Below, piece after piece: positions 1 to 16,205 of a DNA stretch of 32,000 bases (the stretch's first letter is position 1; the number at the start of each line of letters is the position of its first letter). Made by a program: the position numbers and the translations under genes. This DNA is from Candidatus Saccharimonadota bacterium. GTDB lineage: Bacteria > Patescibacteriota > Patescibacteriia > 2-12-FULL-60-25. Below the pieces are notes generated by a model, which ran no database searches, had not been told where the DNA came from, and saw nothing but the letters and a program-made list of their open reading frames with translations. The stretch is from positions 630,001-662,000 of the forward strand of contig CP064964.1 in the NCBI GenBank assembly GCA_016699205.1. Reading direction: 5' to 3'.

Positions 1-164
1 GTGGCACTCGGCGGCGAGCGGGCATCGAGCGTGTCGAATGTCCTCGTACTTCCGCCGTCGCGACGACGACTGAAGCTCTCGCCGCCTTTGGCGCATCCGG
101 CGATTGCGGGCCAAAGAAAGATGAAGTTGAAACTGACCAAGAGATAGATGAACCATCGACGCAT
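1..164 (-). CDS. putative lipoprotein; downstream (C-terminal) part cut off by window edge
   Basis: Own minus-strand translation. The ATG at 164-162 is preceded by GGGAGG with a 5-nt spacer. MRRWFIYLLVSFNFIFLWPAIAGCAKGGES... is a hydrophobic signal region followed by a lipobox-like IAG|C. It is absent from the ORF track because it runs off the window. Confidence 0.4.
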   Translation of the reverse strand, partial: MRRWFIYLLVSFNFIFLWPAIAGCAKGGESFSRRRDGGSTRTFDTLDARSPPSA

Positions 165-538
165 GGGAACCTCCCGACCGCACCCAACACTCATTGTAGG
201 CACGGCCGGGGATTACCCGGCGCAGAATCTCGACCGGAACAGGAGGTAGTTGGTCGTCCTACCAGCATCGAGTCAGGCGCGGCACGACCACTGATGAGTC
301 AGAGTCATTTTGCCCGCCCAACCCAACACTCCCCGTCCGGCAACGCACATTGTCCAACCAGCCTTTCGGCATGACCTAGAACCGCAAGCATGGAACGGTC
401 CGGATCATGGACACCACTCGGGCCGGTTATTTCCCGAGCGCATCCCTCAACCAGCAATGCACTGTTCTTGTTCCGACGTTCGGAACTTGTGAATGTCCGC
501 GACACATACGGGCTTTTGACTCCCTCGTGTCTGATTCC

Positions 539-567
539 AGAATAGGAATTGACGATAGGCGCGTCAA
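539..567 (-). promoter_or_regulatory. sigma70-like promoter candidate (TTGACG-N17-TATTCT)
   Basis: Minus strand: TTGACG (567-562), 17-nt spacer, TATTCT (544-539). It would give a ~370-nt GC-rich leader before the ATG at 164. Confidence 0.3.
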
Positions 568-716
568 AAAAGTTGTTTGTCTTTTTTGACATAACATTTC
601 TTCATGTAAAAATCTTGCAGACATTAAGAGCCGGTCTCTCTATTGATATTGTTTATCGATTAAAACATCCCGCATGCGCTGACAGAATTGAAATTTGGGT
701 TGTGGATTGTTTTATT

Positions 717-1883
717 TTAACGACGCGTGGATAACTTTTTCCATGCCCACCAAATAACGATGTAACAACCGATCATGAACCATGGAGTTACACCTAAACC
801 CGACCAAGAACCCCAACCGATATTCTCGGCGGTCGTTGCGATCCATAGCAGTGCGGATAAAAATCCTTGGGCTGGGAGCGTGAATGGCGAGGATGGTATT
901 GCGAGCGCGATGAGACCGCTGCCCATCGCCCACGGGATGAGAGGGATGGCAAAAAGATTGGTGATGATGCCAACGACGGTCGCTTGTCCAAAAGCCCAAG
1001 CGGCGTATGGCGTCGTCATTAACGTAGCAGCGAGCGTGGTTGAGACGCCCTCGCGAATACCATCCCAAGGAATCTTCTTTTCAAAATACTCGTCAAAGCG
1101 TTGGCCCCAAGTCATGAGGCCAAGGGTTGCCAGGAATGAAAGTGCGAAAGAGGGATCGTAAACGAGCGACCACGGCTTCCATGCAGCAAAGATCGAAGCA
1201 GCTACGAGTAACAGACGTTTCGTTGATGGTAGTCGGCCAACGACGGGGGCAAGTGCTACCAGCCAACCCATAATTGCCGCGCGTACTACGGGTGCTTGAG
1301 GCGCGACGAGCCAGACAAAGGCGATCAGAACACCCGTTAAAAGTAAAAAGGCTTTTCTGCGTGAAAGATGAAATAGATTAAAGAGCTGCATCGCGGCCAT
1401 GACAACAATCATTACGTTGGAACCCGAGACAGCGACGAGATGCGTCATGCCGGCCGTGCGGAATGCATCGCGTGATTCTTTGGTGAGACTTCTTTCTCCG
1501 TAGAGAATTCCCGCGAGGAGAGCGCCTTCATCGCCGGGCAAGCCTTGGCGAATGCGGCCTGAGAGATAGTCACGGTAGGGATTTGGGGCATTGCGCGTGT
1601 AAGCAAAGCCGCTTGGATCGAGGAAGCGGAGGTTGGGCGGAATTGATGAAGATTCAAAACGCCAAAGACCTAACAAGAAAGCGAGCGTGACGAGAAAGAC
1701 GTAACGAAAAATGGATTTTGATAAAAGGAGAGCGATGAATAACGCTAGAGCAGAAGCGATCGAGAGATATTGCATGCCGATGGATGCGTAGGGCCATGGG
1801 CTATGGATAGCGATGCCTAAAAGAAATGCGGCAAAAAGCCACCCGGAGAATTTCCAGAATGAAATCGGCTTGATCGCGCTCAC
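717..1883 (-). CDS. comEC: ComEC/Rec2-family competence membrane protein (short form, competence domain only)
   Basis: 388-aa polytopic membrane ORF. The segment ...FRTAGMTHLVAVSGSNVMIVV... resembles the ComEC competence-domain signature. GTG start with GGAG 6 nt upstream. Confidence 0.8.
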   Translation of the reverse strand: MSAIKPISFWKFSGWLFAAFLLGIAIHSPWPYASIGMQYLSIASALALFIALLLSKSIFRYVFLVTLAFLLGLWRFESSSIPPNLRFLDPSGFAYTRNAPNPYRDYLSGRIRQGLPGDEGALLAGILYGERSLTKESRDAFRTAGMTHLVAVSGSNVMIVVMAAMQLFNLFHLSRRKAFLLLTGVLIAFVWLVAPQAPVVRAAIMGWLVALAPVVGRLPSTKRLLLVAASIFAAWKPWSLVYDPSFALSFLATLGLMTWGQRFDEYFEKKIPWDGIREGVSTTLAATLMTTPYAAWAFGQATVVGIITNLFAIPLIPWAMGSGLIALAIPSSPFTLPAQGFLSALLWIATTAENIGWGSWSGLGVTPWFMIGCYIVIWWAWKKLSTRR

Positions 1884-1923
1884 TCTCTACTCCGTTCCAC
1901 GGAACGTTCGGCTCTGTCAATCC

Positions 1924-3006
1924 TTATGCTCCGATTCTGAAATAGCAAACATCGCCATCCTGCATGATGTAGTCTTTTCCTTCGATGCGCGTCTTTCCCT
2001 TTTCACGGCAACCGGCTTCTCCACCAAATTCCACGTAGTCCGTATACGGCGTGATTTCTGCGCGGATGAAATTCTTTTCAAAGTCGGTGTGAATGACGCC
2101 AGCGGCTTGAGGAGCGGTTGATCCTTTTTTGGTGGTCCAGGCGCGTGTTTCAACTTCACCTGTGGTCAGGAATGTGATGAGACCGAGGACATCGTAGGCT
2201 TCTTGGATCAGTTTGTTCAAGCCGCTCTGGGTTTGGCCGGCCATTTCCAAATATTCTTTTTTCTCGTCGTCGGACATGGTGGAGAGGTCTGCTTCCATCT
2301 TGATACAGACAGGAACGATGCGGCCTTTCAGGTCTTTGACGCGTTCTTTCCAAGAACCATCGCCAAGCTGAGCTTCACTGACGTTTACGACGTACAACAT
2401 CGGTTTCATCGTGAGAAGCTGAAGGACACGCAAAGAGAAGCGCTCGTCATCGGTCCACTCGACATCGCGGAGCATGGTGCCGGCGTTCAAGTTCTGGATC
2501 GCTTTGGCGACAGCAGTGCCTTCTGCTTCCAACTCTTTGGTTTTGCCGCTCTTCATCTGCTTCTCGATGGTACCGGAGCGTTTGGTGAGAACATCCAAGT
2601 CAGCGAGGGCGAGCTCGGTATTGATCGTGTCGGCATCGCGCAGAGGGTTGATGGAGCCGTCGACGTGAAGAATATTAGAATCTTCAAATGCGCGGACAAC
2701 CTGGGCGATGGCGTCGGTCTCGCGAATGTTGGCGAGGAATTTGTTGCCGAGGCCTTGGCCTTCGGAAGCTCCCTTTACGAGACCGGCGATATCGACGAAT
2801 TCGATCACGGTCGGAATCAGTTTGGCGCTGCCGCTCATCTTGGACAGGACAGCGAGGCGTTCATCCGGAACTTCAACGACGCCGACGTTTGGATCGATCG
2901 TGCAGAACGGATAGTTGGCGCAGTCGACCTGCTTTTTGGTGATCGCAGAAAACAGCGTGGATTTGCCCACGTTTGGAAGACCGACGATGCCGATTTGGAG
3001 AGCCAT
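1924..3006 (-). CDS. ychF: ribosome-binding ATPase YchF (Obg-like GTPase family)
   Basis: [23 protein letters not shown] (P-loop), ...[20 protein letters not shown]..., and a C-terminal TGS-like ...[16 protein letters not shown] place the start at the internal ATG (3006), giving the canonical [10 protein letters not shown]-terminus. The track ORF starts 13 codons further upstream, at 3045. Confidence 0.95.
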
Positions 3007-3048
3007 ATTTGCGCGGAGAATAAAGGAGAACAGGGAAATGTGCAAGGG

Positions 3049-3076
3049 TTGACTTGTCCTTAATATAATGTAGGTT
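3049..3076 (+). promoter_or_regulatory. promoter candidate TTGACT-N16-TAGGTT
   Basis: AGGGTTGACT...GTAGGTTGGAGG closely parallels the tig upstream block AGGGTTGACG...GTAGGTTCGAGG. Confidence 0.35.
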
Positions 3077-3100
3077 GGAGGCGCACCTTAGGAGGTCGCT

Positions 3101-3520
3101 ATGAGCGATGTTCCGCTGCTACTCCCGCAAGTGACGGTTCACCGAGGGATGTTCTGGTTTCGAGATAACGAGAGCGTCTGCTACTCGATCTCGCCCGAAA
3201 CAGCGCATGAGATCGTCTTTCATTGGCCGCTTCTACCCAACTCCATGAGGGAAGGCCAGCTCACGTTTACCGTCGGACCGTATCGCGTAACCAAGCGTCT
3301 CACGGCCAGCGTCGAGCTGCCACTGCGTACGTCCTATCAAGGAACGCGCGGCGTGATGGTCTCGATCGAGTGGATTGCACGCATGCAGCCGCTACTCGAG
3401 TACGCCTACCGAATTCATCAGCATGATCCGAACGACTCGTTCACGATCGTGTTTGGCGAAGAGGGTCGGTCTACGCGCGTCGAGCCTGATCGACAATCCA
3501 TTCCACCGCAGAAGGAGTAG
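3101..3520 (+). CDS. hypothetical protein (orphan, GC-rich island)
   Basis: 139-aa ORF with a strong SD (TAGGAGGtcgctATG). First gene of a tightly packed three-gene unit. No family recognised. Confidence 0.7.
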   Translation: MSDVPLLLPQVTVHRGMFWFRDNESVCYSISPETAHEIVFHWPLLPNSMREGQLTFTVGPYRVTKRLTASVELPLRTSYQGTRGVMVSIEWIARMQPLLEYAYRIHQHDPNDSFTIVFGEEGRSTRVEPDRQSIPPQKE

Positions 3521-3523
3521 AAG

Positions 3524-4066
3524 ATGCCGGCTCTGCTTTCAATTGATGCCTGCATCGTGGTTCGCGGCGTCAAGCCTATCGGATTCCACGGCGCGTATCG
3601 AGATCCGTCGAGCGTATGCGAAGTCTGGATTCGCGACAGCTACGCGGGTGTCGAGAATTGCTGGCACCAGTATTACGCCGATCAGACCATCGACCTTCTC
3701 AACGATCTTGCGAAGATCAACTTCTCGATCGACGAGCGCGATGAGATGATTGGCGCGGTCAGACATACGAGCCAACGCGAGCACTCTGTGACTCTGACCG
3801 GGCATTCGGTTCCGCAAATCGGCGTGGATTGGGAGATTAGCCTCGGGAGTTTTTGGGACAATTTCCCTTTTCTCGAGGCGGCAGAGAATCTCAAGCGGCT
3901 CTCCAAGAGCATCGAGCCGAACCAAATCATACCGATTCACCCGGTGAACAATCCGCCCGCTCTTGCCCAGCAGCTTCAGGAGTACCGCGCGCGCTGGCAG
4001 GACAACCTCAATCGTCCAACCCACACGTATCTCCCGATCCACATCAACCGACCGGAGGAGAAATGA
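3524..4066 (+). CDS. hypothetical protein (orphan, GC-rich island)
   Basis: 180-aa ORF. Its ATG lies 3 nt after the upstream stop, and its SD (GAAGGAG) overlaps that stop. No family recognised. Confidence 0.7.
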   Translation: MPALLSIDACIVVRGVKPIGFHGAYRDPSSVCEVWIRDSYAGVENCWHQYYADQTIDLLNDLAKINFSIDERDEMIGAVRHTSQREHSVTLTGHSVPQIGVDWEISLGSFWDNFPFLEAAENLKRLSKSIEPNQIIPIHPVNNPPALAQQLQEYRARWQDNLNRPTHTYLPIHINRPEEK

Positions 4067-4269
4067 CTCGTACCGTGATCTTTGTTGCCGTCCTGCTCAT
4101 GCTCGCACCGACCGAGATCAAGGAGCGCGCAGCCGACATACGCCGCAAGTCCGCGGAGATGCGTGAGCGCTTCTGGCGTAAGTACGACGCCGCCGCGAAT
4201 CACGCGATCGATCGCCTCGAAGACTTGGGCGTCATTCGCACCAAGGACTACGGGACTAGCAAGTCCTAA
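4063..4269 (+). CDS. small hypothetical protein with N-terminal hydrophobic segment
   Basis: MTRTVIFVAVLLMLAPTEIKERAADIRRKSAEMRERFW... The ATG overlaps the upstream stop (ATGA at 4063-4066), with SD GGAGGAG just upstream. The track ORF 3853..4269 has an implausible N-terminal extension that overlaps the previous gene. Confidence 0.55.
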   Translation: MTRTVIFVAVLLMLAPTEIKERAADIRRKSAEMRERFWRKYDAAANHAIDRLEDLGVIRTKDYGTSKS

Positions 4270-4278
4270 AACTGCCTG

Positions 4279-4315
4279 CGCCGACCCGGAATCACCGGGT
4301 CGGCGTTTCGTATTT
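4279..4315 (+). terminator. intrinsic terminator
   Basis: CGCCGACCCGG-aatca-CCGGGTCGGCG stem-loop followed by tttcgtattt. Confidence 0.7.
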
Positions 4316-4322
4316 ACGAGGG

Positions 4323-4351
4323 TTGACGTGATCGACGAAAACGCGTAGGTT
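4323..4351 (+). promoter_or_regulatory. promoter candidate TTGACG-N17-TAGGTT (tig)
   Basis: Correct spacing. It lies about 15 nt upstream of the tig ATG, implying a very short leader without an SD. Confidence 0.4.
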
Positions 4352-4365
4352 CGAGGCCTATATAT

Positions 4366-5649
4366 ATGTATACGGTAACCAAACTCCCTAAGTCGGAGGC
4401 CAAAATCGAATTTGAAGTTACGTGGGAAGAGTCTGCCCCCTATCGCGAAGAAGCGGTGGTCGAGATTTCCACGGCCAAACCAATGCCGGGATTCCGTCCA
4501 GGCAAAGCTACCTATGCCGATGTTTCACGCATGGTTGGCGAGATGAAGATTCTTGAGATGGCGCTCGAGCGTATCGTGCGCGCTTATTACGTGAAGGCTG
4601 TTATCGCCGAGAAGCTTGAGACGGTTGGTTCCCCGGCTGTTTCTGTTGATCAGCTCACGGCTGGCCAGTCCATCAAATTTACGACGATCTCTCCTGTTGC
4701 ACCGGAAGTCACCAAAATGCCGGTCATCAAAGACTGCGCTGTTGAGAAGAAGACCAAGCAGGCCACGGACAAGGAAGTTGAGGATGCGGTCGATGAAATG
4801 CGCAAAATGCGCCGCACCGAGGTTCTCGTAGACCGCGCTGCGACCATGGATGACTTGGTGATCGTTGATATGGAGATGTCGCGTGATCATGTTGCGCTTG
4901 AGGGCGGCACGGGACGTGATTACCGTGTTTACTTGTCGGAACCGCAATATATCCCTGGGTTGACGCAAAAACTCGAGGGTATCAAGGCTGGCGAGGAGCG
5001 TACGTTTGCTCTCCCTTTCCCTGAGGAATATTTCCAGAAGCATTTGGCAGGCAAGGATGTCGACTTCAAGGTGAAGGCCAATTCCGTGCATGAGTTGAAG
5101 ATGCCGGAAGTGAATGACGAGTTTGCCAAGGGTATCGGTATCGAGACCATGGATGAGCTGCGCAAGAAACTTCAGGAGAACATGCAGAAGGAAATGGATC
5201 AGCGAAGTTCCGACGCGGCCGAGATCGAGATGTTGGAAAAACTTGTTGCACAAGCGAGCTTCTCGGAAGTTCCGGAAATTTTGATCAATGAGGAAGTGCG
5301 CCGCATGCAGCATGAGCTGCAGCACAGCATCGAGGAGCAAGGAATGAAATGGGATGATTATCTTTCGTCCATCAAAAAGACGGAAGCTGATCTCAAACTC
5401 GACTTTGTGAAGCAGGCGATCCGCCGCATTCAAACGGCTGTGCTCATCAAAGCGTTTGCCAAGAAGAATGATATCGATGTCGCGGATGAAGAAGTGGATG
5501 CCGAGATCGACCGCATTCTTGAAAACTTGCCAGCAGAGCAAGAAGAATCGCGCGCGCATGTCTCAAGTCCGGACTATCGCGACTACGTAAAAGTCACGAT
5601 GCGCAACCGCCGAACCTTGGAATGGCTGCGAACGGAGTGTATTAAATAA
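4366..5649 (+). CDS. tig: trigger factor
   Basis: 427 aa. N-terminal ...MPGFRPGKATYADV... (ribosome-binding-domain style GFRxGK motif), a central FKBP-like region, and a C-terminal helical arm rich in E/K. Confidence 0.9.
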   Translation: MYTVTKLPKSEAKIEFEVTWEESAPYREEAVVEISTAKPMPGFRPGKATYADVSRMVGEMKILEMALERIVRAYYVKAVIAEKLETVGSPAVSVDQLTAGQSIKFTTISPVAPEVTKMPVIKDCAVEKKTKQATDKEVEDAVDEMRKMRRTEVLVDRAATMDDLVIVDMEMSRDHVALEGGTGRDYRVYLSEPQYIPGLTQKLEGIKAGEERTFALPFPEEYFQKHLAGKDVDFKVKANSVHELKMPEVNDEFAKGIGIETMDELRKKLQENMQKEMDQRSSDAAEIEMLEKLVAQASFSEVPEILINEEVRRMQHELQHSIEEQGMKWDDYLSSIKKTEADLKLDFVKQAIRRIQTAVLIKAFAKKNDIDVADEEVDAEIDRILENLPAEQEESRAHVSSPDYRDYVKVTMRNRRTLEWLRTECIK

Positions 5650-5655
5650 ACGAGA

Positions 5656-5682
5656 AACGCCCCCGTGAGAAACGGGGGCGTT
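5656..5682. terminator. bidirectional intrinsic terminator between convergent genes
   Basis: AACGCCCCCG-tgagaaa-CGGGGGCGTT, with T-rich flanks on both strands. Confidence 0.7.
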
Positions 5683-5689
5683 CTTGTAG

Positions 5690-6394
5690 TCAGCCGCGGT
5701 TCAGCCGGTCTGCCAGCGAGATGATGTTCGGATGCTTGCGTCGATTCTTCTCGGCCTTGTACATGCGAATGAGCTCGTCCTTTGCACCGTTGAGACAGTG
5801 CTCGCTGTAGCAAAGCTTTCCTTCGCTATCGTGCGAGAACATGTAGACCCCACTCTGGGCGGACCACTGGTTGTAGCCACCGAGGCGAGGCGCATCGACT
5901 TGATACGGGGACTCCATGCGGAGCGCGTAGTAGCGTCCGTCCCCGCTGAGGATCTTGCCTCGCAGGATCTGACCATCGTGCTCCACGGTGACCTCGACGT
6001 TCGAGTTCTCACAGAAGCGATCGTGTTCGTCGATCTGCTTCTTGATGGGGTCGAGTTTCGCGTTCTTGCGTGCTTCGACGTGAAGCTTGATCGCTTCCTC
6101 GCCCTGCTTCTGGACATCCGTGGGGATCCTCCCGATGTAACCCCACTTACGACCGCGGTACTCGGACTTGAACCAGAAGTAGAGTCGACCGTCGTGCTCC
6201 GCGAAGGCGGGGTTCCTCTCGAGCGAGTCAATGTCGCCTTGAGAGCCCTTGCCTTTTTCACGGATGCCACGGCAGGCCTCCCACCTGAGTTTATTTTCGA
6301 CCTCGTCGAGATCGACATCCGACGTGAATTCATCCGTGTGGTAGTGATCCACGAGATCCTGCTCCAGATCGATCGGCTGCGGGTTGTCCATCAT
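5690..6394 (-). CDS. hypothetical protein (orphan, GC-rich island)
   Basis: 234-aa ORF with SD GAAAGGAG before a tandem ATG ATG (the start may be 6391). Flanked by terminators. Two other long ORFs overlap it in other frames or on the other strand but have junk-like composition. Confidence 0.7.
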   Translation of the reverse strand: MMDNPQPIDLEQDLVDHYHTDEFTSDVDLDEVENKLRWEACRGIREKGKGSQGDIDSLERNPAFAEHDGRLYFWFKSEYRGRKWGYIGRIPTDVQKQGEEAIKLHVEARKNAKLDPIKKQIDEHDRFCENSNVEVTVEHDGQILRGKILSGDGRYYALRMESPYQVDAPRLGGYNQWSAQSGVYMFSHDSEGKLCYSEHCLNGAKDELIRMYKAEKNRRKHPNIISLADRLNRG

Positions 6395-6418
6395 CGTCTC
6401 CTTTCAAAGTACAATGTG

Positions 6419-6480: not shown

Positions 6481-6517
6481 GACAAATGAAAACGCCGTTC
6501 GCAGATGCGAACGGCGT
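6481..6517 (-). terminator. intrinsic terminator
   Basis: ACGCCGTTCGC/GCGAACGGCGT hairpin (6492-6517) followed on the minus strand by tttcatttg. Confidence 0.7.
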
Positions 6518-6536
6518 CAGCTTCTCCTCGGCGGAG

Positions 6537-7250
6537 TCACTTGATCGAGGGAGCTGCGCAACCCCGACGCGGAAAGGGAGGGTCATCGACATCCAAAAGA
6601 GTAGTGCCGTCGGATGAATGGTGGTCTACGACCGGAGCATAGTTTCTCGGACGCAGATACTCAGGCAGGCTTTGATCGCTTTCCTCGCGCACAGGACTCA
6701 TCACGTATCCCGCGAGGTAGAACGGATACAGCGTCTTGCGGTCGATGGCGCGGATCCGTTCAGGAACCAGCCAAGAGAGCACAAGACCTTCGTCCGCAAT
6801 GGACTTCGGGCCGCACAGGTTCTCGAAGGAGAAGGCACGGATCGATTCGTCCCTCAGAGGCGACGACAGGTTAGGGATCACGACCCACTCAATGATGGGC
6901 TCGTGGGTTCCGTCACCGTTCAGAAGACGAAATCTATCGATGTGTCCCCCGCGCTTGTCCGTCCGTGCGCCCAGCCTACGGTCGAACTTGGGTCCATGAA
7001 CCCGCTTCATGGCCTCGGCATGCGCTTCGAAGGTCTGGATCATGCCCTCGCGGCCCTTGCCGAAGCGGACACGAAACGATCGGAAAGCGTCACGTCCCCG
7101 GGGCCAGTTGGGAGCGGTTGCAGCGAGGCGCTCGAAGACATCGGAGTGGATACCCCAATTCCCAAGCTCGCACTGTTCTCGCAAGCGCTTGATTTGAATC
7201 TCAAGAGACTGCTTGAACGGGTTCCTGCTCTTTGCGTGCTCAGCACTCAT
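6537..7250 (-). CDS. hypothetical protein (orphan, GC-rich island)
   Basis: The ORF track starts it at GTG 7256. The ATG at 7250 has a better SD context (AAGGAtgtggtaATG). No family recognised. Confidence 0.7.
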   Translation of the reverse strand: MSAEHAKSRNPFKQSLEIQIKRLREQCELGNWGIHSDVFERLAATAPNWPRGRDAFRSFRVRFGKGREGMIQTFEAHAEAMKRVHGPKFDRRLGARTDKRGGHIDRFRLLNGDGTHEPIIEWVVIPNLSSPLRDESIRAFSFENLCGPKSIADEGLVLSWLVPERIRAIDRKTLYPFYLAGYVMSPVREESDQSLPEYLRPRNYAPVVDHHSSDGTTLLDVDDPPFPRRGCAAPSIK

Positions 7251-9996: not shown

Positions 9997-10269
9997 GTTA
10001 GCGCAATCATCTGTGGACAAAACTGTGGATAGGTGGGGATAAAACTAGGGACAACTGAGGGATAAAAGATCGGACATAATTAGAACGGGGTGTTTGTGCA
10101 CGTATTAGACGGATGATGTCCCCGTCAATGGTGGATGAATGAGGACGATAACATGGCTAAGACAAGCCATGTTTTTGATTATCCCCGCTGTCCACATAGC
10201 CTATTACTACTACTGTTTATATATATACTTGATTAACACAACACGGAGTGCGAACATCGGCATGAACAT
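9997..10269. other. oriC-like region (DnaA-box cluster plus AT-rich unwinding element)
   Basis: DnaA-box-like 9-mers at 10012-10020, 10024-10032, 10034-10042 and 10057-10065 (reverse orientation), and at 10179-10187 and 10188-10196 (forward). Each matches 7-8/9 of TTATCCACA. An AT-rich run ctattactactactgtttatatatatacttgattaa follows at 10201-10237. The dnaA-dnaN spacer is a classical oriC location. Confidence 0.6.
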
Positions 10270-11400: not shown

Positions 11401-11414
11401 GAACTATGCAGCAA

Positions 11415-11449
11415 GAAAAACGCCCCGGTTAACGGGGCGTTTTTTTTTA
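11415..11449. terminator. bidirectional intrinsic terminator
   Basis: aaaaACGCCCCG-gttaa-CGGGGCGTttttttttt between the convergent dnaN and PBP genes. Confidence 0.8.
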
Positions 11450-14305
11450 TTCTGTAATGTTTACACTGATTTGCACGCGGTCGAATTGATCGACATTGGC
11501 CTTTTTGGCTTTGACGACGAGATCGTAGCGGCCGATTGGAGGACCGGCTGGGACGGAGATGGTGATCTCGTTGGCGTTGGGCAGGAGCTGCGTTCCTACG
11601 AGACGATCAACGCTGTCGCTGCCGATGAAGCTGACGTCTACGCGATCATATTGCGATGGGTTTTCCAGACGGACGCGGATGATTTTTGGGAATGTCGTGC
11701 GTGCCCAGGTTTCTCCGTTGGAAGGCGCGATGATCGAGATGGTTGGTTCGTTTGGATCGGCATCGGCTTCAAGGTTGAAGGTTGTGCTCGACTCGCCCCA
11801 TTGGCCCATGTTGTCGTAAGCGCGGACGATGAGTGTGCGGAAGCCTTTGCCGATGCTGTTTGGAATTCTTACGCGGAAATCCCAGGGAGCATTGAAACCA
11901 GATCCAACAGGCGTGCCGTCGACGAATGCTTCTACGCGCGTGATTGGGCGCGAGGAGTTGATCGAGAGACTGACCTGCATCTGACGTGTAAAGATCGATC
12001 CATTTGCTTGCGGCGAGAGCACGGAGATTTGCGGTCGAGTTTCTTCCGTGAAGGCGTCATCCGTTTCTGTCGGGATCGTGCTCGTTGCATTCCAGCTTGT
12101 TTTTGAGACCCAGGTTTGAACGCCGGTTTCCCAGTTGGAGAATTGTGGATCATCGGCCGGGTTGGATGGAGGTGGTCCGGTTGGATCGTCTTTATCGACG
12201 TAGTAAAGAATGTCATGCGCTTCTCTGCCGATGCGTTCTTCTACGAGTTCCGGCGGCGTCTGATCGGTGGCGAGTTTGCCGGTCAATTTGTTGACTTTGA
12301 TTTTTTGTTCAAAGACTTTGCCGAGCAGGATTGGGCGTGTTGTTTCCGGAGGGGCGGGCTTGGTGAAGCGTTCAATTGGTTTGCCGGTGAGCGCGCGCTT
12401 CATGAAGGCCTGCCAGATCGGTGCGGCGACGATGGAGCCGTCCGCGCCGCGTTTCATTTCCGAGTTATCGTTGTTGCCGACCCAGACAACCGAGACGAGG
12501 TTGGGCGTGTAGCCCGCCGTCCATGCATCGTGGTTGTTGTTGGTGGTTCCGGTTTTGGCAGCTACCGGACGATCCGGAAGCGTGAGCGAGTTACGGCCGC
12601 CAAAAATGTAGGCGCGCGCATTGTTGTCGGAGAGAACGTCGTTGGTGAGGCGGGCGATCTGCTGATCCATGACGCGGCGAGCTTCCGGCTCCTTCCACTC
12701 TTCAAGGATTTTTCCGTCAGCATCTTCCACACGGAGAACGGCAGAGGTTGGACGCCATTCACCGTCGGTGGCAAAGGCTGCGAAGGCGGCAGCGTGCTCG
12801 ATTGGTTTCACTTCTGCGCCTCCGAGTACAAGTGATAATCCAAAGCGACTGCGGTCTTCTAACGTTGAATAGCCGAGTGTTTCGGCAAAATCGAGCACTC
12901 GTCCGACACCGACGAGGTAGAGAACTTTCACGGCCGGAATATTCAGAGAGCCGGCCAATGCCTGACGCAAAGAGACGGGACCGTTTTCTTTCAGACTGTA
13001 GTTTTTTGGTTCGTATTTTCCGATCTCGGTTTTGAAAACCGTGTTGACGTCCCAGACTTGGGTTTCTGGTAAGTAGCCGCGCATGAAGGCGGCCGCATAA
13101 ACAATCGGCTTAAAGCTGGAGCCAGGCTGACGCTCCGACAAGGTTACGTTGAATTGACCGTCGTTCTCTTCATCAAAGAAATCCTTGGATCCGACCATTG
13201 TCAGGACTTGCCCAGTCTTTGGTTCCAAAGCAACGAGGGCGGCGTTGGTAAATTGGTATTGTTTTCCAAGTGTTTCAACGCCTTTTTTTATTTCCTCTTC
13301 TGCTGCCTGCTGCATGCTCCAGTCCAAGGTTGTAATGACTTTCAATCCGCCTTGTGCGACAGCGCGATCACCATAGGTTGTTTCAAGAAGATCGCGGACA
13401 TACATGACAAAGTGCGGCGCATCGATATTGCCGATGCGGCGCGGTTTAATTTTTTCAAGCGTCTTTACTTCTTTAGCGGCATCGACTTCTTCACGAGAAA
13501 AAAATCCTTCATCAGCCATTTTTGTGAGGACGAGATGCTGACGTTGTACGAGTTGTTCGCGATGATCACCGCTCAAGCCGGTGCCGTACGGAGAAAAATA
13601 ATCTGGACGCTGAATGATGGCTGCAAGTAATGCCGATTCATCAAGCGTTAATTCTTTTGCAGGTTTTCCAAAATAGGTTTGCGAGGCCGACTCGACGCCA
13701 TACAAGTTTGAGCCGAATGGAATCTCGTTCAAATACAGCTGCAAGATCTCTTCTTTGGAATACTTCTGTTCAATCTGCAGTGACAAAATAATTTCACGCA
13801 GCTTACGCGTGTAGGAGCGCTCTGTTGTGAGAATGGCATTGCGGACGAGCTGCTGAGTTAGTGTTGAAGTTCCTTGCAAACGCTGGCCGCGCAAAACGCT
13901 CATGACGCCGGCGCGTAGGAAGCCGCGCCAGTAGACGCCGTTGTGTTCGTAAAATAAACGGTCCTCGATCGCGATGGCGGCTTTCTGCATCGAGTTTGGA
14001 ATCTCATCGATCTTTACGAGTGTGCGACGTTCATCGCCGTGGATCTCATAAAGGAGATGTTCTCCGGTACGATCAAAGATTTTGGTCGATTGCTGGACGC
14101 TTCTGGTGATCAGGGAGTTTGGATCAGGCAAATCGCGGCTGACCCAAGCGGCAAACAAGGTAAAGACAAAAAGACCGATTACAGAGATCGCTAAACCTCC
14201 TAAAACGGCTATTTTTAGCGCAATCCAAGCCTTTGGGCCGAGTTTTCGGCTCAATGGACGTAGTTTGTAGCTCAAGTCTCTAAATATTTTGCTAATATTA
14301 GCCAT
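11447..14305 (-). CDS. class A penicillin-binding protein (glycosyltransferase + transpeptidase) with C-terminal Ig-like extension
   Basis: GT51 motifs (IAIEDRLFYEHNG, GTSTLTQQL), transpeptidase motifs (PGSSFKP, SLN, KTGTT), and an N-terminal TM anchor. I place the start at ATG MANISKIF (14305). The track uses a TTG 8 codons further upstream. Confidence 0.9.
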   Translation of the reverse strand: MANISKIFRDLSYKLRPLSRKLGPKAWIALKIAVLGGLAISVIGLFVFTLFAAWVSRDLPDPNSLITRSVQQSTKIFDRTGEHLLYEIHGDERRTLVKIDEIPNSMQKAAIAIEDRLFYEHNGVYWRGFLRAGVMSVLRGQRLQGTSTLTQQLVRNAILTTERSYTRKLREIILSLQIEQKYSKEEILQLYLNEIPFGSNLYGVESASQTYFGKPAKELTLDESALLAAIIQRPDYFSPYGTGLSGDHREQLVQRQHLVLTKMADEGFFSREEVDAAKEVKTLEKIKPRRIGNIDAPHFVMYVRDLLETTYGDRAVAQGGLKVITTLDWSMQQAAEEEIKKGVETLGKQYQFTNAALVALEPKTGQVLTMVGSKDFFDEENDGQFNVTLSERQPGSSFKPIVYAAAFMRGYLPETQVWDVNTVFKTEIGKYEPKNYSLKENGPVSLRQALAGSLNIPAVKVLYLVGVGRVLDFAETLGYSTLEDRSRFGLSLVLGGAEVKPIEHAAAFAAFATDGEWRPTSAVLRVEDADGKILEEWKEPEARRVMDQQIARLTNDVLSDNNARAYIFGGRNSLTLPDRPVAAKTGTTNNNHDAWTAGYTPNLVSVVWVGNNDNSEMKRGADGSIVAAPIWQAFMKRALTGKPIERFTKPAPPETTRPILLGKVFEQKIKVNKLTGKLATDQTPPELVEERIGREAHDILYYVDKDDPTGPPPSNPADDPQFSNWETGVQTWVSKTSWNATSTIPTETDDAFTEETRPQISVLSPQANGSIFTRQMQVSLSINSSRPITRVEAFVDGTPVGSGFNAPWDFRVRIPNSIGKGFRTLIVRAYDNMGQWGESSTTFNLEADADPNEPTISIIAPSNGETWARTTFPKIIRVRLENPSQYDRVDVSFIGSDSVDRLVGTQLLPNANEITISVPAGPPIGRYDLVVKAKKANVDQFDRVQISVNITE

Positions 14306-14322
14306 TTTATTGGGCAAAACCC

Positions 14323-14351
14323 TTGACAAAAGGGCTTTATTATGTTATGAT
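14323..14351 (+). promoter_or_regulatory. sigma70-like promoter TTGACA-N17-TATGAT
   Basis: Near-consensus hexamers with 17-nt spacing, 27 nt upstream of the ATG at 14378. Confidence 0.5.
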
Positions 14352-14377
14352 TTTCCGTTAATTATTCAAGCCTGACT

Positions 14378-15007
14378 ATGACTATCTATACCATCAACAA
14401 GTATAACGTAGCCAAAAAGACGTGTCTTGCCATTATGGCTGTCGTCCTCGTTGGCGTACAGGCTGCTGCTCCGGTTGCCAAGGCTGCGGATTTTATCCCA
14501 AGCTTGCTTTGGTCTAAAACGGAGACGGATTCTGCTAATGACAAAGTCATTGTTCTCCCGCAAAAGTCTCGCCCGACTACGATTAAGACCATTCGTATGG
14601 ACTCAACGGCTTATACGTCTCGTGCTAATGAAACGGATGGTAGTCCGTTTATCACGGCTGACGGTTCTGTTGTTCGCGACGGTTATGTTGCAACGAATGT
14701 CTTGCCGATTGGTACCAAGATCCGTATTCCTTCCGTATTCGGTGACAAGATTTTTGAGGTTCGTGATCGCATGAATCCGCGCTATCGCTATCGCGTCGAC
14801 ATCTGGATGGGTGATCTTGCGTCTGCCAAGGCTTATGGATTGAAGCGCAATATCGAGGTTGAAGTTATCGAGATGGGTACGGGTAAAAAGAATTGGGAGC
14901 AGTGGAATGGCCGCACGGCTGACCTTAATAAGGTTGGTAAGTATGGTCCGGCCGCTGAACCGATCCCGCAGCCTTATATCATCGCGAAGATTGACGACCA
15001 GAGTTAA
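14378..15007 (+). CDS. secreted 3D-domain (MltA/RlpA-like fold) cell-wall-binding/hydrolase protein
   Basis: Signal peptide ...VGVQAAAPVAKA|ADF. The C-terminal half STAYTSRANETDGSPFITADGSVVRDGYVATNVLPIGTKIRIP...FEVRDRMNPRYRYRVDIWM resembles the 3D domain pattern. Confidence 0.75.
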   Translation: MTIYTINKYNVAKKTCLAIMAVVLVGVQAAAPVAKAADFIPSLLWSKTETDSANDKVIVLPQKSRPTTIKTIRMDSTAYTSRANETDGSPFITADGSVVRDGYVATNVLPIGTKIRIPSVFGDKIFEVRDRMNPRYRYRVDIWMGDLASAKAYGLKRNIEVEVIEMGTGKKNWEQWNGRTADLNKVGKYGPAAEPIPQPYIIAKIDDQS

Positions 15008-15011
15008 AAAC

Positions 15012-15041
15012 AAAAAGACTCCCGATGGGAGTCTTTTTGTT
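15012..15041. terminator. bidirectional intrinsic terminator
   Basis: AAAAAGACTCCC-gat-GGGAGTCTTTTT between the 3D-domain gene and tRNA-Cys. Confidence 0.8.
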
Positions 15042-15116
<75 letters not shown>

Positions 15117-15138
15117 GCAGTCGTTTCTGTGTGCGAGG

Positions 15139-15167
15139 ATATTAGCCATAGGTGTTGATTTTCGCAA
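15139..15167 (-). promoter_or_regulatory. promoter candidate TTGCGA-N17-TAATAT (tRNA-Cys)
   Basis: Minus strand hexamers at 15167-15162 and 15144-15139, about 20 nt upstream of the tRNA 5' end. Confidence 0.45.
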
Positions 15168-15182
15168 GCGATGAACCAACTC

Positions 15183-15211
15183 TTTACGAGACTTTCTATC
15201 TGTAGTATCCT
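15183..15211 (+). promoter_or_regulatory. promoter candidate TTTACG-N17-TATCCT
   Basis: Correct spacing, upstream of the ORF at 15268. Weaker hexamers. Confidence 0.3.
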
Positions 15212-15267
15212 GCGGGCCCGTTTGTCTTTCAAGTGGGCGGGCAACGCACTTTTTCAAGAGGAGTTTC

Positions 15268-16152
15268 ATGGAGCCTATGTCTCATCGATACGATACACCC
15301 GTACCGATCCCGAATGTCGAGGTGAAACGCGTTTCTCTCAACGAGCTGGCAACAGCTCACGCCAAGACGGGAGAGCGGTCGGTGCTGCTCGCCATCGACA
15401 TGAAGCAGGAGGTACATGAGGGGGTGATTGGTTTGATGCCGCTTTTGCCGGTGACGCGGTTCATTCCGTACAAGCCGGAGTATGCACTGGTGCGAGGATA
15501 CTACTCGATCGGACGCGTGGTGTTTCTGACGGGTAATGTGCGATTGCGCGCATTGCTTTCGGAGCCTGAGTCGCTCGATCTGGTGGTCGATGCGATCAGG
15601 CGTCGGCGCAATCCGCAAACGGGCGTGACTCCCATGGAGGCGCGCTTCGTCGGACCGCTCGAGACTTGTCTCATGCGGCGCGAGGGCCGATGGACCGAGC
15701 TCACGCAGCGCGGTGAAGGTCCTGCCGTGACGGGCGTCGATGCGCAGAGCGACATGGCTTACGCCATTCAGCTGCGTGGATCGGAGCGCTCGCTGTCCAT
15801 CGTTCGCGGACGACCGACGCTCGAGGGCGTCATCAACTGGGAGCTTGTGACCACGGCGCCGGATGGCGTTTCTATCCTGGATGCGAGCCGAATGGTGCGC
15901 GATCGGGATGGTGCGCTACTCAGCTTGGTCTCGCTCGAGGGCGAGTGCGTGAAGCTTCTCTCGCTGACCAAAGGTAAGGTGTATTGGGGTGAAGACATCC
16001 GGCTGCCTGGCTCTGCCATCGAGGGAAATGGCGTGGGTGCGGAGCCGGGATCGATCCTGACCCAGCGATGGGCAGAGGACGGTTACCTCGTCACCCAGTA
16101 CAGTCGTTTCTACAATCTTCCGCTCTTGGCCTATCTGAAGTCGAGCGGCTGA
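15268..16152 (+). CDS. hypothetical protein (orphan, GC-rich island)
   Basis: 294-aa ORF with SD AGAGGAGtttcATG, followed by a strong terminator. No family recognised. Confidence 0.7.
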   Translation: MEPMSHRYDTPVPIPNVEVKRVSLNELATAHAKTGERSVLLAIDMKQEVHEGVIGLMPLLPVTRFIPYKPEYALVRGYYSIGRVVFLTGNVRLRALLSEPESLDLVVDAIRRRRNPQTGVTPMEARFVGPLETCLMRREGRWTELTQRGEGPAVTGVDAQSDMAYAIQLRGSERSLSIVRGRPTLEGVINWELVTTAPDGVSILDASRMVRDRDGALLSLVSLEGECVKLLSLTKGKVYWGEDIRLPGSAIEGNGVGAEPGSILTQRWAEDGYLVTQYSRFYNLPLLAYLKSSG

Positions 16153-16163
16153 TCGGCATTTCT

Positions 16164-16205
16164 GAGGACCTCGGACATTCTGTCCGAGGTCCTCTTCTTT
16201 TTGTT
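16164..16205 (+). terminator. intrinsic terminator
   Basis: GAGGACCTCGGACA-ttc-TGTCCGAGGTCCTC followed by ttcttttt. Confidence 0.8.

What the first reader, a model, noticed from the sequence alone, without database searches (positions are those of the whole stretch)
1..16205. Compositional mosaic: GC-richer orphan genes with strong SD sequences interleaved with lower-GC, SD-poor core genes
By eye (not computed), 1-600, 3050-4320, 5650-7310 and 15170-16210 are clearly richer in G/C, especially at codon position 3, than the neighbouring ychF, tig, dnaA, dnaN, PBP and polA genes. All seven ORFs in these stretches lack any family I recognise. Every one has a good SD (GGGAGG, GGAGG, AAGGAG, GGAGGAG, AAGGAG, AAGGA, GAGGAG) 5-8 nt before its start. 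In contrast tig, dnaA, dnaN, the PBP gene, the 3D-domain gene, polA, rpsT and the surface genes show none. The islands nevertheless use the same TTGACR-N17-TAnnnT promoter layout, and the 3101 promoter shares AGGGTTGAC...GTAGGTTsGAGG with the tig promoter. Each island is bounded by clean terminators. This pattern argues for resident, expressed accessory genes, possibly acquired from a GC-richer donor such as a host organism, rather than simple contamination.
Basis: partly seen in the sequence, partly recalled or inferred. Interest (0 to 1): 0.65.

Follow-up and report, generated by a model that had tools for sequence, protein, structure and literature searches.

The report
GC-rich self-contained gene cassettes in Uhrbacteria
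Seven small unknown genes sit between housekeeping genes of a tiny uncultured bacterium, and they are G+C-richer and use a classic ribosome-binding site that the core genes lack; this looks like a property of a pool of swappable gene cassettes, not the trace of one recent import.

Summary
The window is the dnaA/oriC region of a ~1.08-Mb Candidatus Uhrbacteria (CPR/Patescibacteria) genome. The seven orphan ORFs have GC3 0.67-0.78. Thirteen core genes have 0.41-0.63, with no overlap (p 1e-5). All seven have stronger Shine-Dalgarno pairing than all 18 other genes (p 8e-5). Each island has its own promoter and, for islands 2-4, its own intrinsic terminator.

The orphans are real genes, not assembly artefacts. 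They have orthologues and dN/dS of 0.13-0.29. One has a confident, fold-novel AlphaFold model. The same junctions occur in independent assemblies.

They occupy a few slots between conserved genes. Slot content differs between strains whose flanks are 96-99.6% identical.

The GC3 surplus and the SD persist in orthologues after synonymous sites have saturated. One family (orf239) forms a ~0.9-kb GC spike in 27 of 29 unrelated CPR-like contexts (mean GC3 offset +0.26).

No homologue was found in phages, plasmids or named non-CPR organisms, so a host donor is unsupported.

Best reading: moron-like autonomous cassettes of a flexible CPR gene pool. The cause of the GC surplus is unresolved: selection, biased gene conversion or a GC-rich reservoir. 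The 16S anti-SD status is untested.

The parts
1..164 (-). Island 1: 5' part of a 293-aa Cys-rich lipoprotein gene (lipobox IAGC). The SD GGGAGG lies at c170-175.
   Evidence: Reading. The full gene in the sister strain lies between 'orf95' and recA, with GC3 0.68 and dG -11.0. There is a weak MopE motif.
3049..3095 (+). orf139 promoter and leader: -35 TTGACT 3049-3054, -10 TAGGTT 3071-3076, SD AGGAGG 3090-3095. It is paralogous in sequence to the tig promoter at 4323-4351.
   Evidence: alignment with L017, L004, L001 and L003.
3101..3520 (+). orf139, a lineage-restricted gene (GC3 0.68).
   Evidence: Orthologues lie in the same ychF-tig slot: 66% identity in L017, 43% in L004, 29% in L001, while ychF is 86-93%. 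The cluster has 15 members. dN/dS is 0.075 against the sister strain.
3524..4066 (+). orf180 (GC3 0.70), with SD AAGGAG at 3512-3517. It was found only in this species.
   Evidence: Against the sister strain dS is 0.017, whereas flanking ychF has 0.28 and tig 0.19.
4063..4269 (+). orf68, a small protein with an N-terminal hydrophobic segment (GC3 0.78). The SD is GGAGGAG at 4054-4060, and its ATG overlaps the orf180 stop (ATGA).
   Evidence: Homologues follow the orf139 orthologue in L001, L017 and L004, with GC3 0.68-0.87.
4278..4306 (+). Intrinsic terminator closing island 2.
   Evidence: 12-bp stem, 10 GC pairs, T tract.
5655..5683 (-). Intrinsic terminator of orf234.
5690..6394 (-). orf234 (GC3 0.77), with SD AAGGAG at c6398-6403 and a -35 TTGACA at c6442-6447.
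   Evidence: It is 53% identical to a gene in the same slot of L017. It is 28% identical (E 3e-9) to the 195-aa gene that replaces it in the sister strain. Both of those homologues are preceded by a SAM-I riboswitch-like leader; the window copy is not.
6491..6518 (-). Intrinsic terminator of orf239.
6537..7250 (-). orf239 (GC3 0.67). The true start is ATG 7250, the SD is AAAGGA at c7258-7263, and the -35 is TTGACA at c7303-7308. It belongs to a widespread, unnamed, fold-novel family that is mobile as a single gene.
15042..15116 (-). tRNA-Cys(GCA) bordering island 4.
   Evidence: The tRNA is also present in this slot in L003 and L004.
15268..16152 (+). orf294 (GC3 0.71), with SD GAGGAG at 15258-15263 and a ~50-nt leader.
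   Evidence: Orthologues lie in the same 3D-polA slot, at 90% (L064), 54% (L065), 45% (L001), 38% (L003) and 33% (L002) identity. dN/dS is 0.13-0.29.
16164..16194 (+). Intrinsic terminator closing island 4.
   Evidence: 14-bp stem.

Best explanation
The seven ORFs are real, lineage-restricted accessory genes of a Candidatus Uhrbacteria genome. They are packaged as autonomous, moron-like cassettes: a sigma-70-type promoter, a canonical Shine-Dalgarno site, one to three ORFs and an intrinsic terminator.

The cassettes sit in a few permissive slots between conserved housekeeping genes near dnaA (ychF|tig, tig|yggU, tRNA-Cys|polA, comEC-side|recA).

Shown:
- Slot content is gained, lost and replaced between strains and species while the flanks stay syntenic.
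- At least one family (orf239) moves as a single-gene unit between unrelated contexts.
- The high GC3 and the SD travel with the cassettes and persist over long divergence.
- Core genes start without an SD, on short leaders.

Inferred:
- The cassettes belong to a flexible gene pool exchanged among CPR bacteria. The likely route is DNA uptake (ComEC is encoded next door) followed by recombination in the conserved flanks.
- The cassettes need their own expression signals because they land between unrelated genes.
- The SD is functional, so the anti-SD is probably retained.

Not resolved: why GC3 stays above the host level. The options are gene-specific selection, GC-biased gene conversion at recombination-active loci, or repeated re-seeding from a GC-rich reservoir.
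For: Identity and synteny. The comEC-ychF--tig--yggU-yidD-rnpA-dnaA-dnaN-PBP-3D--polA order holds across about 30 loci.

Autonomous units.

Real genes: dN/dS 0.13 (dS 0.44, similar to polA 0.50) and 0.29. The AlphaFold model of orf239 has pLDDT 88 and pTM 0.87.

Not chimeric.

Strain-level turnover. The sister strain is 99.6% identical over 7342-17271 and 95.5-96% over 1-5650. Its tig-yggU slot holds a different cassette, and it has an extra 345-aa gene before tig.

Slots are open in most relatives. The tig-yggU gap exceeds 400 bp in 81% of 27 loci, and the 3D-polA gap in 93% of 14. L004 carries a non-homologous, GC3-rich (0.70) ORF in the 3D-polA slot.

Persistence of the signature. Orthologue GC3 against the core mean is .71-.81/.58 in L001.56-.68/.45 in L017.73-.87/.48 in L004.67/.56 in L002 and .72/.55 in L065, with dS >= 1.3 to L065. 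The SD is kept in orthologues.

orf239 family. It has 119 clusters. GC3 exceeds the neighbours' in 27 of 29 loci, mean +0.255, p 2e-6. A strong SD occurs in 25/37 members against 18% of neighbour ORFs. The GC spike covers a single gene. Copies 80-87% identical at the nucleotide level have non-homologous flanks. One copy sits next to yidD-rnpA-dnaA of another Uhrbacterium. Polarised third-position changes imply an equilibrium GC3 near 0.76, and a pseudogenised copy decays with S->W 20:0.

Same class elsewhere in the genome: orphans left of the window have GC3 0.78-0.95 and ACGGAGG SDs, next to SD-less recA and rodZ-like genes (ftsK reaches -7.1).

Across 46 Patescibacteria loci, a strong SD occurs in 10-18% of narrowly distributed or slot ORFs against 3% of core ORFs.
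Against: - No mobility machinery was found: no integrase, transposase, terminal repeats or attC-like sites.
- Same-slot orthologues could equally reflect vertical descent with fast protein evolution.
- Not every flexible gene carries the signature. The sister strain's 195-aa replacement has an SD but GC3 0.55, and its 345-aa insertion has GC3 0.48 and no SD. L003's orf294 orthologue has GC3 0.41 against a core of 0.43.
- Averaged over all slot ORFs in relatives, the GC3 offset is about 0. My ORF calls there are crude, and antisense ORFs of GC3-rich genes dilute the signal.
- There are no expression data.
- The 16S anti-SD of this genome was not available, and about half of Parcubacteria reportedly lack the motif (PMC9297842).
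- The polarised-substitution test rests on only 31 ancestral W sites.
Confidence: 0.55

Rival explanations
1. Recent horizontal acquisition from a GC-richer non-CPR donor, such as the host organism. On this view GC3 and the SD are the donor's imprint.
For: The compositional deviation and SD dichotomy are real. orf180, orf234 and orf239 have a patchy distribution. A tRNA gene borders island 4. The lipoprotein carries a weak MopE-type Cys motif, which from memory is common in GC-rich Myxococcota.
Against: Homologues occur only in Uhrbacteria or CPR-like contigs and carry no source names. There are no phage or plasmid hits. Orthologues occupy the same slots across species, with GC3 and SD kept at dS > 1. 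Most orf239-family members sit in hosts with lower GC3, so no GC-rich cellular home is visible.
Confidence: 0.08
2. Expression-linked codon bias. The orphans are very highly expressed resident genes, and in this genome high expression selects G/C-ending codons and an SD.
For: Among core genes, the presumably well-expressed tig and ychF have the highest GC3 (0.61, 0.63) and polA/holA the lowest (0.46, 0.41). atpD has the top GC3 (0.78) in L068. The orphans have consensus -35 boxes, strong SDs and strong terminators.
Against: The ribosomal-protein genes rpsT and rpmH have GC3 about 0.55 and no SD. GC1, GC2 and the R/K ratio shift as well, and both C and G rise at four-fold sites, which points to a general GC pressure rather than specific codons. 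Offsets of 0.9 against 0.4 in the orf239 family are far beyond usual translational selection. Homologues elsewhere are riboswitch-controlled rather than constitutive.
Confidence: 0.12
3. GC-biased gene conversion. The slots are recombination hot spots, and repeated heteroduplex repair raises GC in and near them.
For: The window-versus-sister-strain comparison shows a recombination mosaic, with dS from 0 to 0.28 between neighbouring genes. ychF and tig, which flank island 2, have the highest core GC3. GC rises at all three codon positions. The implied equilibrium GC3 is far above the host level.
Against: yggU (0.43-0.44), 3D (0.51) and polA (0.46) directly flank islands yet are not enriched. 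Non-homologous cassettes cannot form heteroduplex with the allele they replace. The GC spike ends sharply at the gene borders. A pseudogenised copy loses GC, which fits selection better than conversion.
Confidence: 0.15
4. Artefact. The islands are assembly chimeras or contamination, or the ORFs are non-coding (for example, the antisense ORFs are the real genes).
For: Long antisense ORFs overlap orf180, orf234, orf239 and orf294.
Against: The same junctions occur in independent assemblies. The GC3 > GC1 > GC2 periodicity is on the SD/terminator strand, whereas the antisense ORFs show GC1 > GC3. dN/dS is well below 1. orf239 has 119 homologous clusters and a confident fold. Open antisense frames are expected when A-ending codons are rare.
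Confidence: 0.02

Closest known systems
Phage 'morons' (Juhala/Hendrix; reviewed by Cumby, Davidson & Maxwell 2012, PMC3594210)
   Same: Each is an independent transcription unit with its own promoter and factor-independent terminator. It is inserted between genes that are adjacent in relatives, and its GC content differs from the neighbours'. Morons spread horizontally (for the definition; for the window).
   Different: These cassettes lie in a cellular chromosome among housekeeping genes, not in a prophage. There are no phage genes or PHROG hits. The deviation is always towards higher GC, and it comes with a translation-initiation signal that the host's core genes lack.
Flexible genomic islands of the replacement/additive type in bacterial populations (Rodriguez-Valera and colleagues; from memory)
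   Same: The chromosomal locus and flanks are conserved, while content between closely related strains is non-homologous or highly divergent. Window versus sister strain: orf234+orf239 against a 28%-identical 195-aa gene, plus an extra 345-aa gene.
   Different: The islands here are one to three genes (0.9-1.7 kb), not tens of kilobases of glycosylation or transport genes. Most products look cytoplasmic and belong to no known family.
Classical horizontally acquired genomic islands and ORFans (Lawrence & Ochman amelioration; Daubin & Ochman ORFans; from memory)
   Same: They share compositional deviation, lineage restriction, fast protein evolution, and tRNA adjacency for one island.
   Different: ORFans and recent acquisitions are typically A+T-richer than their host and drift towards host composition. 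Here they are G+C-richer, and the offset is retained after synonymous saturation. There is no integrase and there are no flanking repeats.
SD-poor translation regimes (Bacteroidota; some Parcubacteria lacking the anti-SD motif, Tsurumaki et al. 2022, PMC9297842; GeneMarkS-2 genome classes with 'atypical' genes, PMC6028130)
   Same: Core genes start without an SD on short leaders. A minority gene class with different start signals and composition is what gene finders model as 'atypical'.
   Different: Here the minority class carries a strong canonical SD that is conserved across species. As far as my searches show, the link between SD use, GC3 surplus and cassette mobility has not been described for CPR.
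Integron gene cassettes
   Same: They are single-gene mobile units accumulating at fixed chromosomal positions.
   Different: Integron cassettes are promoter-less and carry attC sites next to an integrase. Here each unit has its own promoter and terminator. No attC-like repeat or integrase was seen when reading the islands and their borders.

Membership tests
Moron-like autonomous cassette | Own promoter upstream of the inserted gene(s) | tested here: met
   TTGACT-N16-TAGGTT (orf139), TTGACA-N17-TATAGC (orf239) and TTGACA-N17-TAAAGC (orf234). orf294 has a weaker TTTACG-N17-TATCCT. This is sequence level only; no transcript data exist.
Moron-like autonomous cassette | Own factor-independent terminator downstream | tested here: met
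   4278-4306, c5655-5683, c6491-6518 and 16164-16194. Island 1's terminator lies outside the window.
Moron-like autonomous cassette | Inserted between genes that are adjacent in related genomes | tested here: met
   ychF and tig are 112 bp apart in L003. tig and yggU are 12-52 bp apart in L001, L003 and L004, and 47 bp apart in L065.
Moron-like autonomous cassette | [quoted passage not shown] | tested here: met
   GC3 0.67-0.78 against 0.41-0.63.
Moron-like autonomous cassette | Resides in a phage or prophage genome | tested here: not met
   The neighbours are ychF, tig, dnaA and polA. There is no PHROG hit for the seven ORFs, no viral contig relative and no phage tblastn hit.
Classical foreign-donor genomic island | Identifiable donor lineage outside the recipient clade | tested here: not met
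   All homologues come from Uhrbacteria or CPR-like contigs.
Classical foreign-donor genomic island | Integration machinery or signatures (integrase, direct repeats, tRNA target) | tested here: inconclusive
   tRNA-Cys borders island 4. No integrase gene was seen. The only flanking repeat is the duplicated tig-type promoter around island 2.
Classical foreign-donor genomic island | Composition ameliorates towards the host with residence time | tested here: not met
   orf294 keeps GC3 0.72-0.75 at dS 0.44-1.33. The offset is present in five of six related species. The orf239 subclade's implied equilibrium GC3 is about 0.76.
Replacement flexible genomic island | Same locus and conserved flanks, with divergent or non-homologous content between close strains | tested here: met
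   The flanks are 96-99.6% identical. Window 5651-7341 is replaced by 906 unrelated bp in the sister strain, and the gene there is 28% identical to orf234.
SD-led translation initiation | Purine-rich motif complementary to CCUCC, a few nucleotides upstream of the start codon | tested here: met
   GGGAGG, AGGAGG, AAGGAG, GGAGGAG, AAGGAG, AAAGGA and GAGGAG, with dG -6.3 to -11.
SD-led translation initiation | Motif conserved in orthologues despite saturated neighbouring sites | tested here: met
   orf139, orf68 and orf294 orthologues in L017, L004, L002, L064 and L065 keep it. For L001 only the orf68 homologue shows it (AAGGAG); the starts of its orf139 and orf294 orthologues are uncertain. The orf239 family keeps A(A)GGAGG-N~10-ATG.
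SD-led translation initiation | Anti-SD (CCUCC) present at the 16S rRNA 3' end of the same genome | not testable with these tools
   No rRNA gene is in the window or in the fetched loci. The motif is reported missing in about half of Parcubacteria.
Integron gene cassette | attC recombination site, adjacent integrase, promoter-less ORF | tested here: not met
   The cassettes have their own promoters. No attC-like repeat or integrase gene was seen in the regions read. A dedicated inverted-repeat search was not run.

The most novel reading that the evidence does not exclude
CPR/Patescibacteria genomes may carry two coexisting 'dialects'. One is an SD-less, lower-GC core. The other is a pool of self-contained, SD-led, GC-rich single-gene cassettes ('chromosomal morons', some riboswitch-controlled). 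On this reading the pool circulates between lineages through DNA uptake. Its composition would be actively maintained against the host's A+T-biased mutation. In effect it would be a long-lived mobile gene pool with its own expression grammar and no recognisable mobility enzymes. If the host 16S turns out to lack the anti-SD, the SD-led class would pose a direct puzzle about how, or by which ribosomes, these genes are translated.
Probability: 0.3. Interest if true: 0.8.

Novelty: new variant of a known kind. Interest (0 to 1): 0.62.

Why it matters
CPR bacteria make up a large share of bacterial diversity, and much of their gene content is unknown. Three points follow from this finding.

First, it gives a simple sequence rule for part of their accessory genes: GC3 surplus, canonical SD, own promoter and own terminator. 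That rule separates these genes from the core. It could improve gene calling, because antisense ORFs are easily mis-called in these GC3-rich genes. It could also help delineate the pangenome.

Second, the sign of the deviation (GC-richer) and its persistence run against the usual picture of A+T-rich ORFans that ameliorate. The data therefore bear on how selection, biased gene conversion and gene flow shape composition in tiny genomes.

Third, part of the Parcubacteria has reportedly lost the anti-SD. A conserved SD-led gene class inside an SD-less genome makes the question of how CPR ribosomes choose start sites directly testable.

The orf239 family (fold-novel, with a covarying leader RNA) and the SAM-riboswitch-controlled orf234 relatives are concrete entry points to function.

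Tried and rejected
- One concatenated query (orf180+orf234+orf239) to save a protein search returned nothing, not even the self proteins known to be in the collection. I treat it as uninformative.
- The word-indexed search with orf239 alone found only itself. The exhaustive HMMER search found 119 clusters.
- Exact look-ups of the window's tig and of P0045 were not on record, so the window's own assembly could not be walked. The sister strain GCA_963851785.1 was used instead.
It was repeated with 12 sequences.
- Foldseek of the good orf239 model against PDB and BFVD gave no match with E < 0.9. A profile search against PDB sequences gave none.
- PADLOC, PHROGs, NCBIfam and Pfam gave nothing for the seven ORFs.
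- Phage, plasmid and IMG/VR searches for orf234, orf239 and orf294 gave nothing.
- Rfam found no known RNA in the islands of the window.
- Literature searches found no description of SD-led or GC-rich accessory genes in CPR.
- I rejected a defence-system or toxin-antitoxin label (no supporting hit) and a prophage remnant (no phage genes).

Full report
WHAT THE WINDOW IS

The DnaA protein is 89% identical to that of two Candidatus Uhrbacteria MAGs and 80-85% identical to three more. A sister strain is GCA_963851785.1, contig CAWKPQ010000002.1 (1,072,613 bp). It is 99.6% identical to window 7342-17271 and 95.5-96% identical to window 1-5650. The window's own proteins are recorded on a 1,082,254-bp NCBI contig.

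The gene order, with brackets marking the islands, is:
- [lipoprotein c1-164], orf95, comEC, ychF
- [orf139, orf180, orf68]
- tig
- [orf234, orf239]
- [orf294]
- polA, holA, rpsT, two tRNAs, and surface-protein genes

OBSERVATION CHECK

GC3 of the seven orphans is 0.67-0.78. Thirteen core genes have 0.41-0.63 and four surface genes 0.42-0.56. There is no overlap (Mann-Whitney p 1.3e-5; pooled 0.712 vs 0.531). GC1, GC2 and the Arg/Lys ratio shift the same way. At four-fold sites both C and G increase.

All seven orphans pair better with the anti-SD than every one of 18 other genes. The ranges are -6.3 to -11.0 against +2.2 to -6.1 kcal/mol (U = 0, p 7.6e-5). The background chance of <= -8 is 2%. 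Even the ribosomal-protein genes rpmH and rpsT lack an SD.

Core promoters sit close to the start codon. For tig and dnaA the -10 box ends 13-14 nt before the ATG, which implies very short leaders.

Islands 2-4 end in strong intrinsic terminators.

The orf139 and tig promoters share GGGTTGAC-N16/17-GTAGGTT(G/C)GAGG, and this is conserved in relatives. In L003, which has no island, a single such promoter precedes tig.

- orf239 starts at ATG 7250.
- The SD-to-ATG spacing is 2-7 nt.
- The orf234 and orf239 -10 boxes are TAnnnC.
- 'orf95' inside 1-600 does not belong to the class.
- Raw GC is also high inside PBP and the surface-gene repeats.

THE ORFS ARE REAL AND THE ASSEMBLY IS SOUND

The orf294 protein and its junction with polA occur on independent assemblies (L061-L064). 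The island-2 genes occur on a Logan contig from another run. The orf234 and orf239 clusters occur on JGI contigs of 1.11 Mb and 0.61 Mb.

Against a 90%-identical orthologue, orf294 has dN/dS 0.13 with dS 0.44, close to polA's 0.50. Against a 54%-identical orthologue it has dN/dS 0.29.

The codon-position GC pattern (GC3 > GC1 > GC2) lies on the strand that carries the SD and the terminator. The long antisense ORFs show the mirror pattern.

orf239 has 119 homologous clusters in an exhaustive HMMER search. With 73 sequences it gives an AlphaFold model with pLDDT 88 and pTM 0.87. That model matches nothing in PDB or BFVD.

EVOLUTIONARY BEHAVIOUR

The backbone order is conserved across about 30 Uhrbacteria-like loci. 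The orphans' orthologues lie in the same slots but diverge much faster than their neighbours:
- orf139 is 66%, 43% and 29% identical in L017, L004 and L001, where ychF is 86-93%.
- orf294 is 45%, 38% and 33% identical in L001, L003 and L002, where polA is 69-83%.
- An orf68 homologue follows orf139 in L001, L017 and L004.

The slots are hot spots. The tig-yggU gap exceeds 400 bp in 81% of 27 loci, and the 3D-polA gap in 93% of 14. L004 carries a different GC3-rich ORF next to the tRNA.

Turnover is visible at strain level. In the sister strain the whole tig-yggU spacer (window 5651-7341) is replaced by 906 unrelated bp. That segment carries a 195-aa gene only 28% identical to orf234 (E 3e-9). 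A 345-aa HTH-HATPase_c_2-DUF4325 gene is also inserted before tig.

Divergence between the two strains is mosaic. dS is 0.28 for ychF, 0.19 for tig, 0.017 for orf180 and about 0 for dnaA to orf294.

THE SIGNATURE PERSISTS

If the GC surplus were the imprint of one recent import, it should fade. It does not. orf294 keeps GC3 0.72-0.75 at dS 0.44 and 1.33, while polA stays at 0.45-0.52.

Orthologue GC3 compared with the core mean is:
- L001: 0.71-0.81 vs 0.58
- L017: 0.56-0.68 vs 0.45
- L004: 0.73-0.87 vs 0.48
- L002: 0.67 vs 0.56
- L065: 0.72 vs 0.55
- L003 (the exception): 0.41 vs 0.43

The SD is also retained in orthologues.

THE orf239 FAMILY GENERALISES THE PATTERN

A metagenome scan gave 53 loci.
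- In 27 of 29 loci with at least three neighbour ORFs, the family member has higher GC3 than its neighbours. Typical values are 0.8-0.95 against 0.39-0.65. The mean offset is +0.255 (p 1.9e-6).
- A strong SD is present in 25 of 37 members, against 18% of neighbour ORFs given the same number of candidate starts.
- The GC spike is about 0.9 kb and covers a single gene.
- Contexts are small-genome and CPR-like. Examples are a copy between dciA and mreB, and a copy beside yidD-rnpA-dnaA of another Uhrbacterium, which is the same origin-proximal neighbourhood as in the window.
- Copies 80-87% identical at the nucleotide level have non-homologous flanks, so the unit moves on its own.
- Polarised third-position changes in that subclade (S->W 80, W->S 11) imply an equilibrium GC3 near 0.76, far above the hosts' 0.39-0.62. 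A copy with two stop codons shows S->W 20:0 and GC3 0.63. This small sample suggests that intact copies are held at high GC.

SAME CLASS ELSEWHERE

Left of the window in the sister genome, island 1 is a single lipoprotein gene before recA. Further on lies a block of at least 5.5 kb of orphans with GC3 0.78-0.95 and ACGGAGG SDs. It sits beside recA and a rodZ-like gene that lack an SD; ftsK has a borderline one at -7.1. One of the orphans has a weak DUF2786/phrog_421 hit.

Across 46 Patescibacteria loci, a strong SD at the first start occurs in 10-16% of narrowly distributed ORFs and 17% of slot ORFs, against 3% of core ORFs (Fisher p 3e-6). Among narrow ORFs, those with a strong SD are GC3-richer (rho -0.21, p 1e-4). 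A GC3 surplus is not a property of all slot ORFs, though. My ORF calls for these loci are crude.

INTERPRETATION

The anatomy matches the definition of phage morons: own promoter and terminator, insertion between genes that are adjacent in relatives, and deviating GC (PMC3594210). The difference is that these units are in a cellular chromosome with no phage genes. The strain-level replacement matches 'replacement flexible genomic islands'.

I therefore read the seven ORFs as autonomous cassettes of a flexible CPR gene pool that lodge in a few permissive slots. comEC next door and the recombination mosaic make DNA uptake plus flank recombination the likely route, but that step is inferred.

Conservation of the SD across saturated divergence argues that it is functional, and hence that the anti-SD is present. 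This could not be checked. Tsurumaki et al. report the anti-SD motif in only 48% of Parcubacteria 16S sequences (PMC9297842).

The host-donor idea finds no support. The reason for the sustained GC surplus remains open. Gene-specific selection, GC-biased gene conversion and re-seeding from an unseen GC-rich reservoir each fit part of the data.

FUNCTION

No family, defence-system or structural match was obtained.

Two leads emerged outside the window. First, the orf234 relatives in the sister strain and in L017 are preceded by a SAM-I riboswitch-like aptamer. In the sister strain it scores 43.1 bits against a gathering score of 44.4, covers the full model at E 6e-9, and is followed by a terminator. 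In L017 it scores 28.2 bits.

Second, most orf239 relatives carry a ~130-200-nt leader with an 18-bp and an 8-bp helix. It is supported by covariation:
- 89% of cells are paired, against 34-46% when the partners are slid.
- 21 of 26 pairs show double changes.
- 0 of 500 shuffles reach the observed values.
- There are many G-U pairs, so the structure is RNA on the sense strand.

This leader is absent from Rfam.

The window's own copies lack both leaders. Metabolite-responsive control elsewhere argues against simple 'junk' or purely selfish genes.

VERDICT

The finding is a new variant of known kinds (morons and flexible islands). Its unusual features are the reversed sign of the compositional deviation, its persistence, and its coupling to a translation-signal dichotomy.

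Noticed in passing
window 20339-21302: Nine clustered copies (eight perfect; 0.1 expected by chance) of the 14-bp palindrome GTTTCACGTGAAAC lie around tRNA-Arg and tRNA-Ala and in the 26-30% GC spacer upstream of the surface-protein genes. A (TTAG)n microsatellite of about 77 units at 20982-21278 sits between two of them. This could be an operator array with a slipped-strand phase-variation tract.
   Followed up: partly
L084:5690-5877, L086:5655-5847, L113:5095-5268 and 14 other loci (alignment A8): There is a conserved structured RNA leader upstream of orf239-family genes. A long helix GUUGAAAGCGGCGUUUUG.../...CAAAACGCCGCUUUCAAC and a second hairpin precede the SD. Covariation is strong: 21 of 26 pairs show double changes, 89% of cells are paired against 34-46% in slid controls, and 0/500 shuffles match. 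It has no Rfam match and is a candidate new riboswitch or leader. The window copy lacks it.
   Followed up: yes
L066:10000-10104 (+) and L017:8572-8675 (-): A SAM-I riboswitch-like aptamer followed by a terminator lies directly upstream of the orf234-family gene in the sister strain. It scores 43.1 bits against a gathering score of 44.4, covers the full model, and has E 6e-9. A weaker hit (28.2 bits) occupies the same position in L017. The window's orf234 has only a plain promoter.
   Followed up: partly
L066:12240-13277 (between the orf68 terminator and the tig promoter; absent from the window at ~4310): The sister strain carries an extra 345-aa gene with HTH, HATPase_c_2 and DUF4325 (STAS-like) domains. 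Its GC3 is 0.48 and it has no SD. It shows that not all strain-variable genes carry the GC-rich/SD signature.
   Followed up: partly
L124:15296-20882 (sister genome, about 5-11 kb beyond the window's left edge): A larger GC-rich block of orphan genes lies here, with GC3 up to 0.95. Two genes have ACGGAGG SDs. One has a weak DUF2786 hit (E 4e-4) and a phrog_421 hit (E 1e-7). Some database gene calls in the block look like antisense frames, because they show GC1 0.86.
   Followed up: partly
window 28086-31936: Tandem repeats of about 1.33 kb lie inside the large surface-protein gene that starts at 26950. Three nearly identical antisense ORFs mark them, and GC skew is strongly negative. The listed ORF ends in a low-complexity, Pro/Arg/Ser-rich tail that suggests a frame problem or repeat collapse.
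   Followed up: no
window 305-592 (-): 'orf95' has no SD and GC3 0.52. It is conserved next to comEC in L001 (77%) and L017 (47%), and is called as a gene in the sister strain. It could be a small protein or a conserved non-coding element. Rfam gives no hit.
   Followed up: partly
window 3505-3520 and 4063-4066: The C-terminus of orf139 (…IPPQKE) is conserved in orthologues (IPPHKE, IPPMKE). Its last codons, AAG GAG, form the SD of the next gene. The orf180 stop and the orf68 start overlap (ATGA), which suggests translational coupling within island 2.
   Followed up: no
L084:6682-6900, L091:3492-3710, L086, L116 and others (3' of orf239-family genes): The region downstream of the stop codon is conserved. 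It contains CTTGG/CTCGG pentamer repeats, an intrinsic terminator and the sequence GGAAAGTAGGCTCATGAATCGG, which starts a frequently co-occurring small gene. The mobile unit may therefore be larger than the ORF, about 1.2 kb or two genes.
   Followed up: partly
L017:16580-17501: The orf294 orthologue in L017 is split into two overlapping ORFs of 144 and 175 aa. This is either a frameshift pseudogene or a sequencing error. Its GC3 is lower (0.55-0.57) than in intact orthologues.
   Followed up: no
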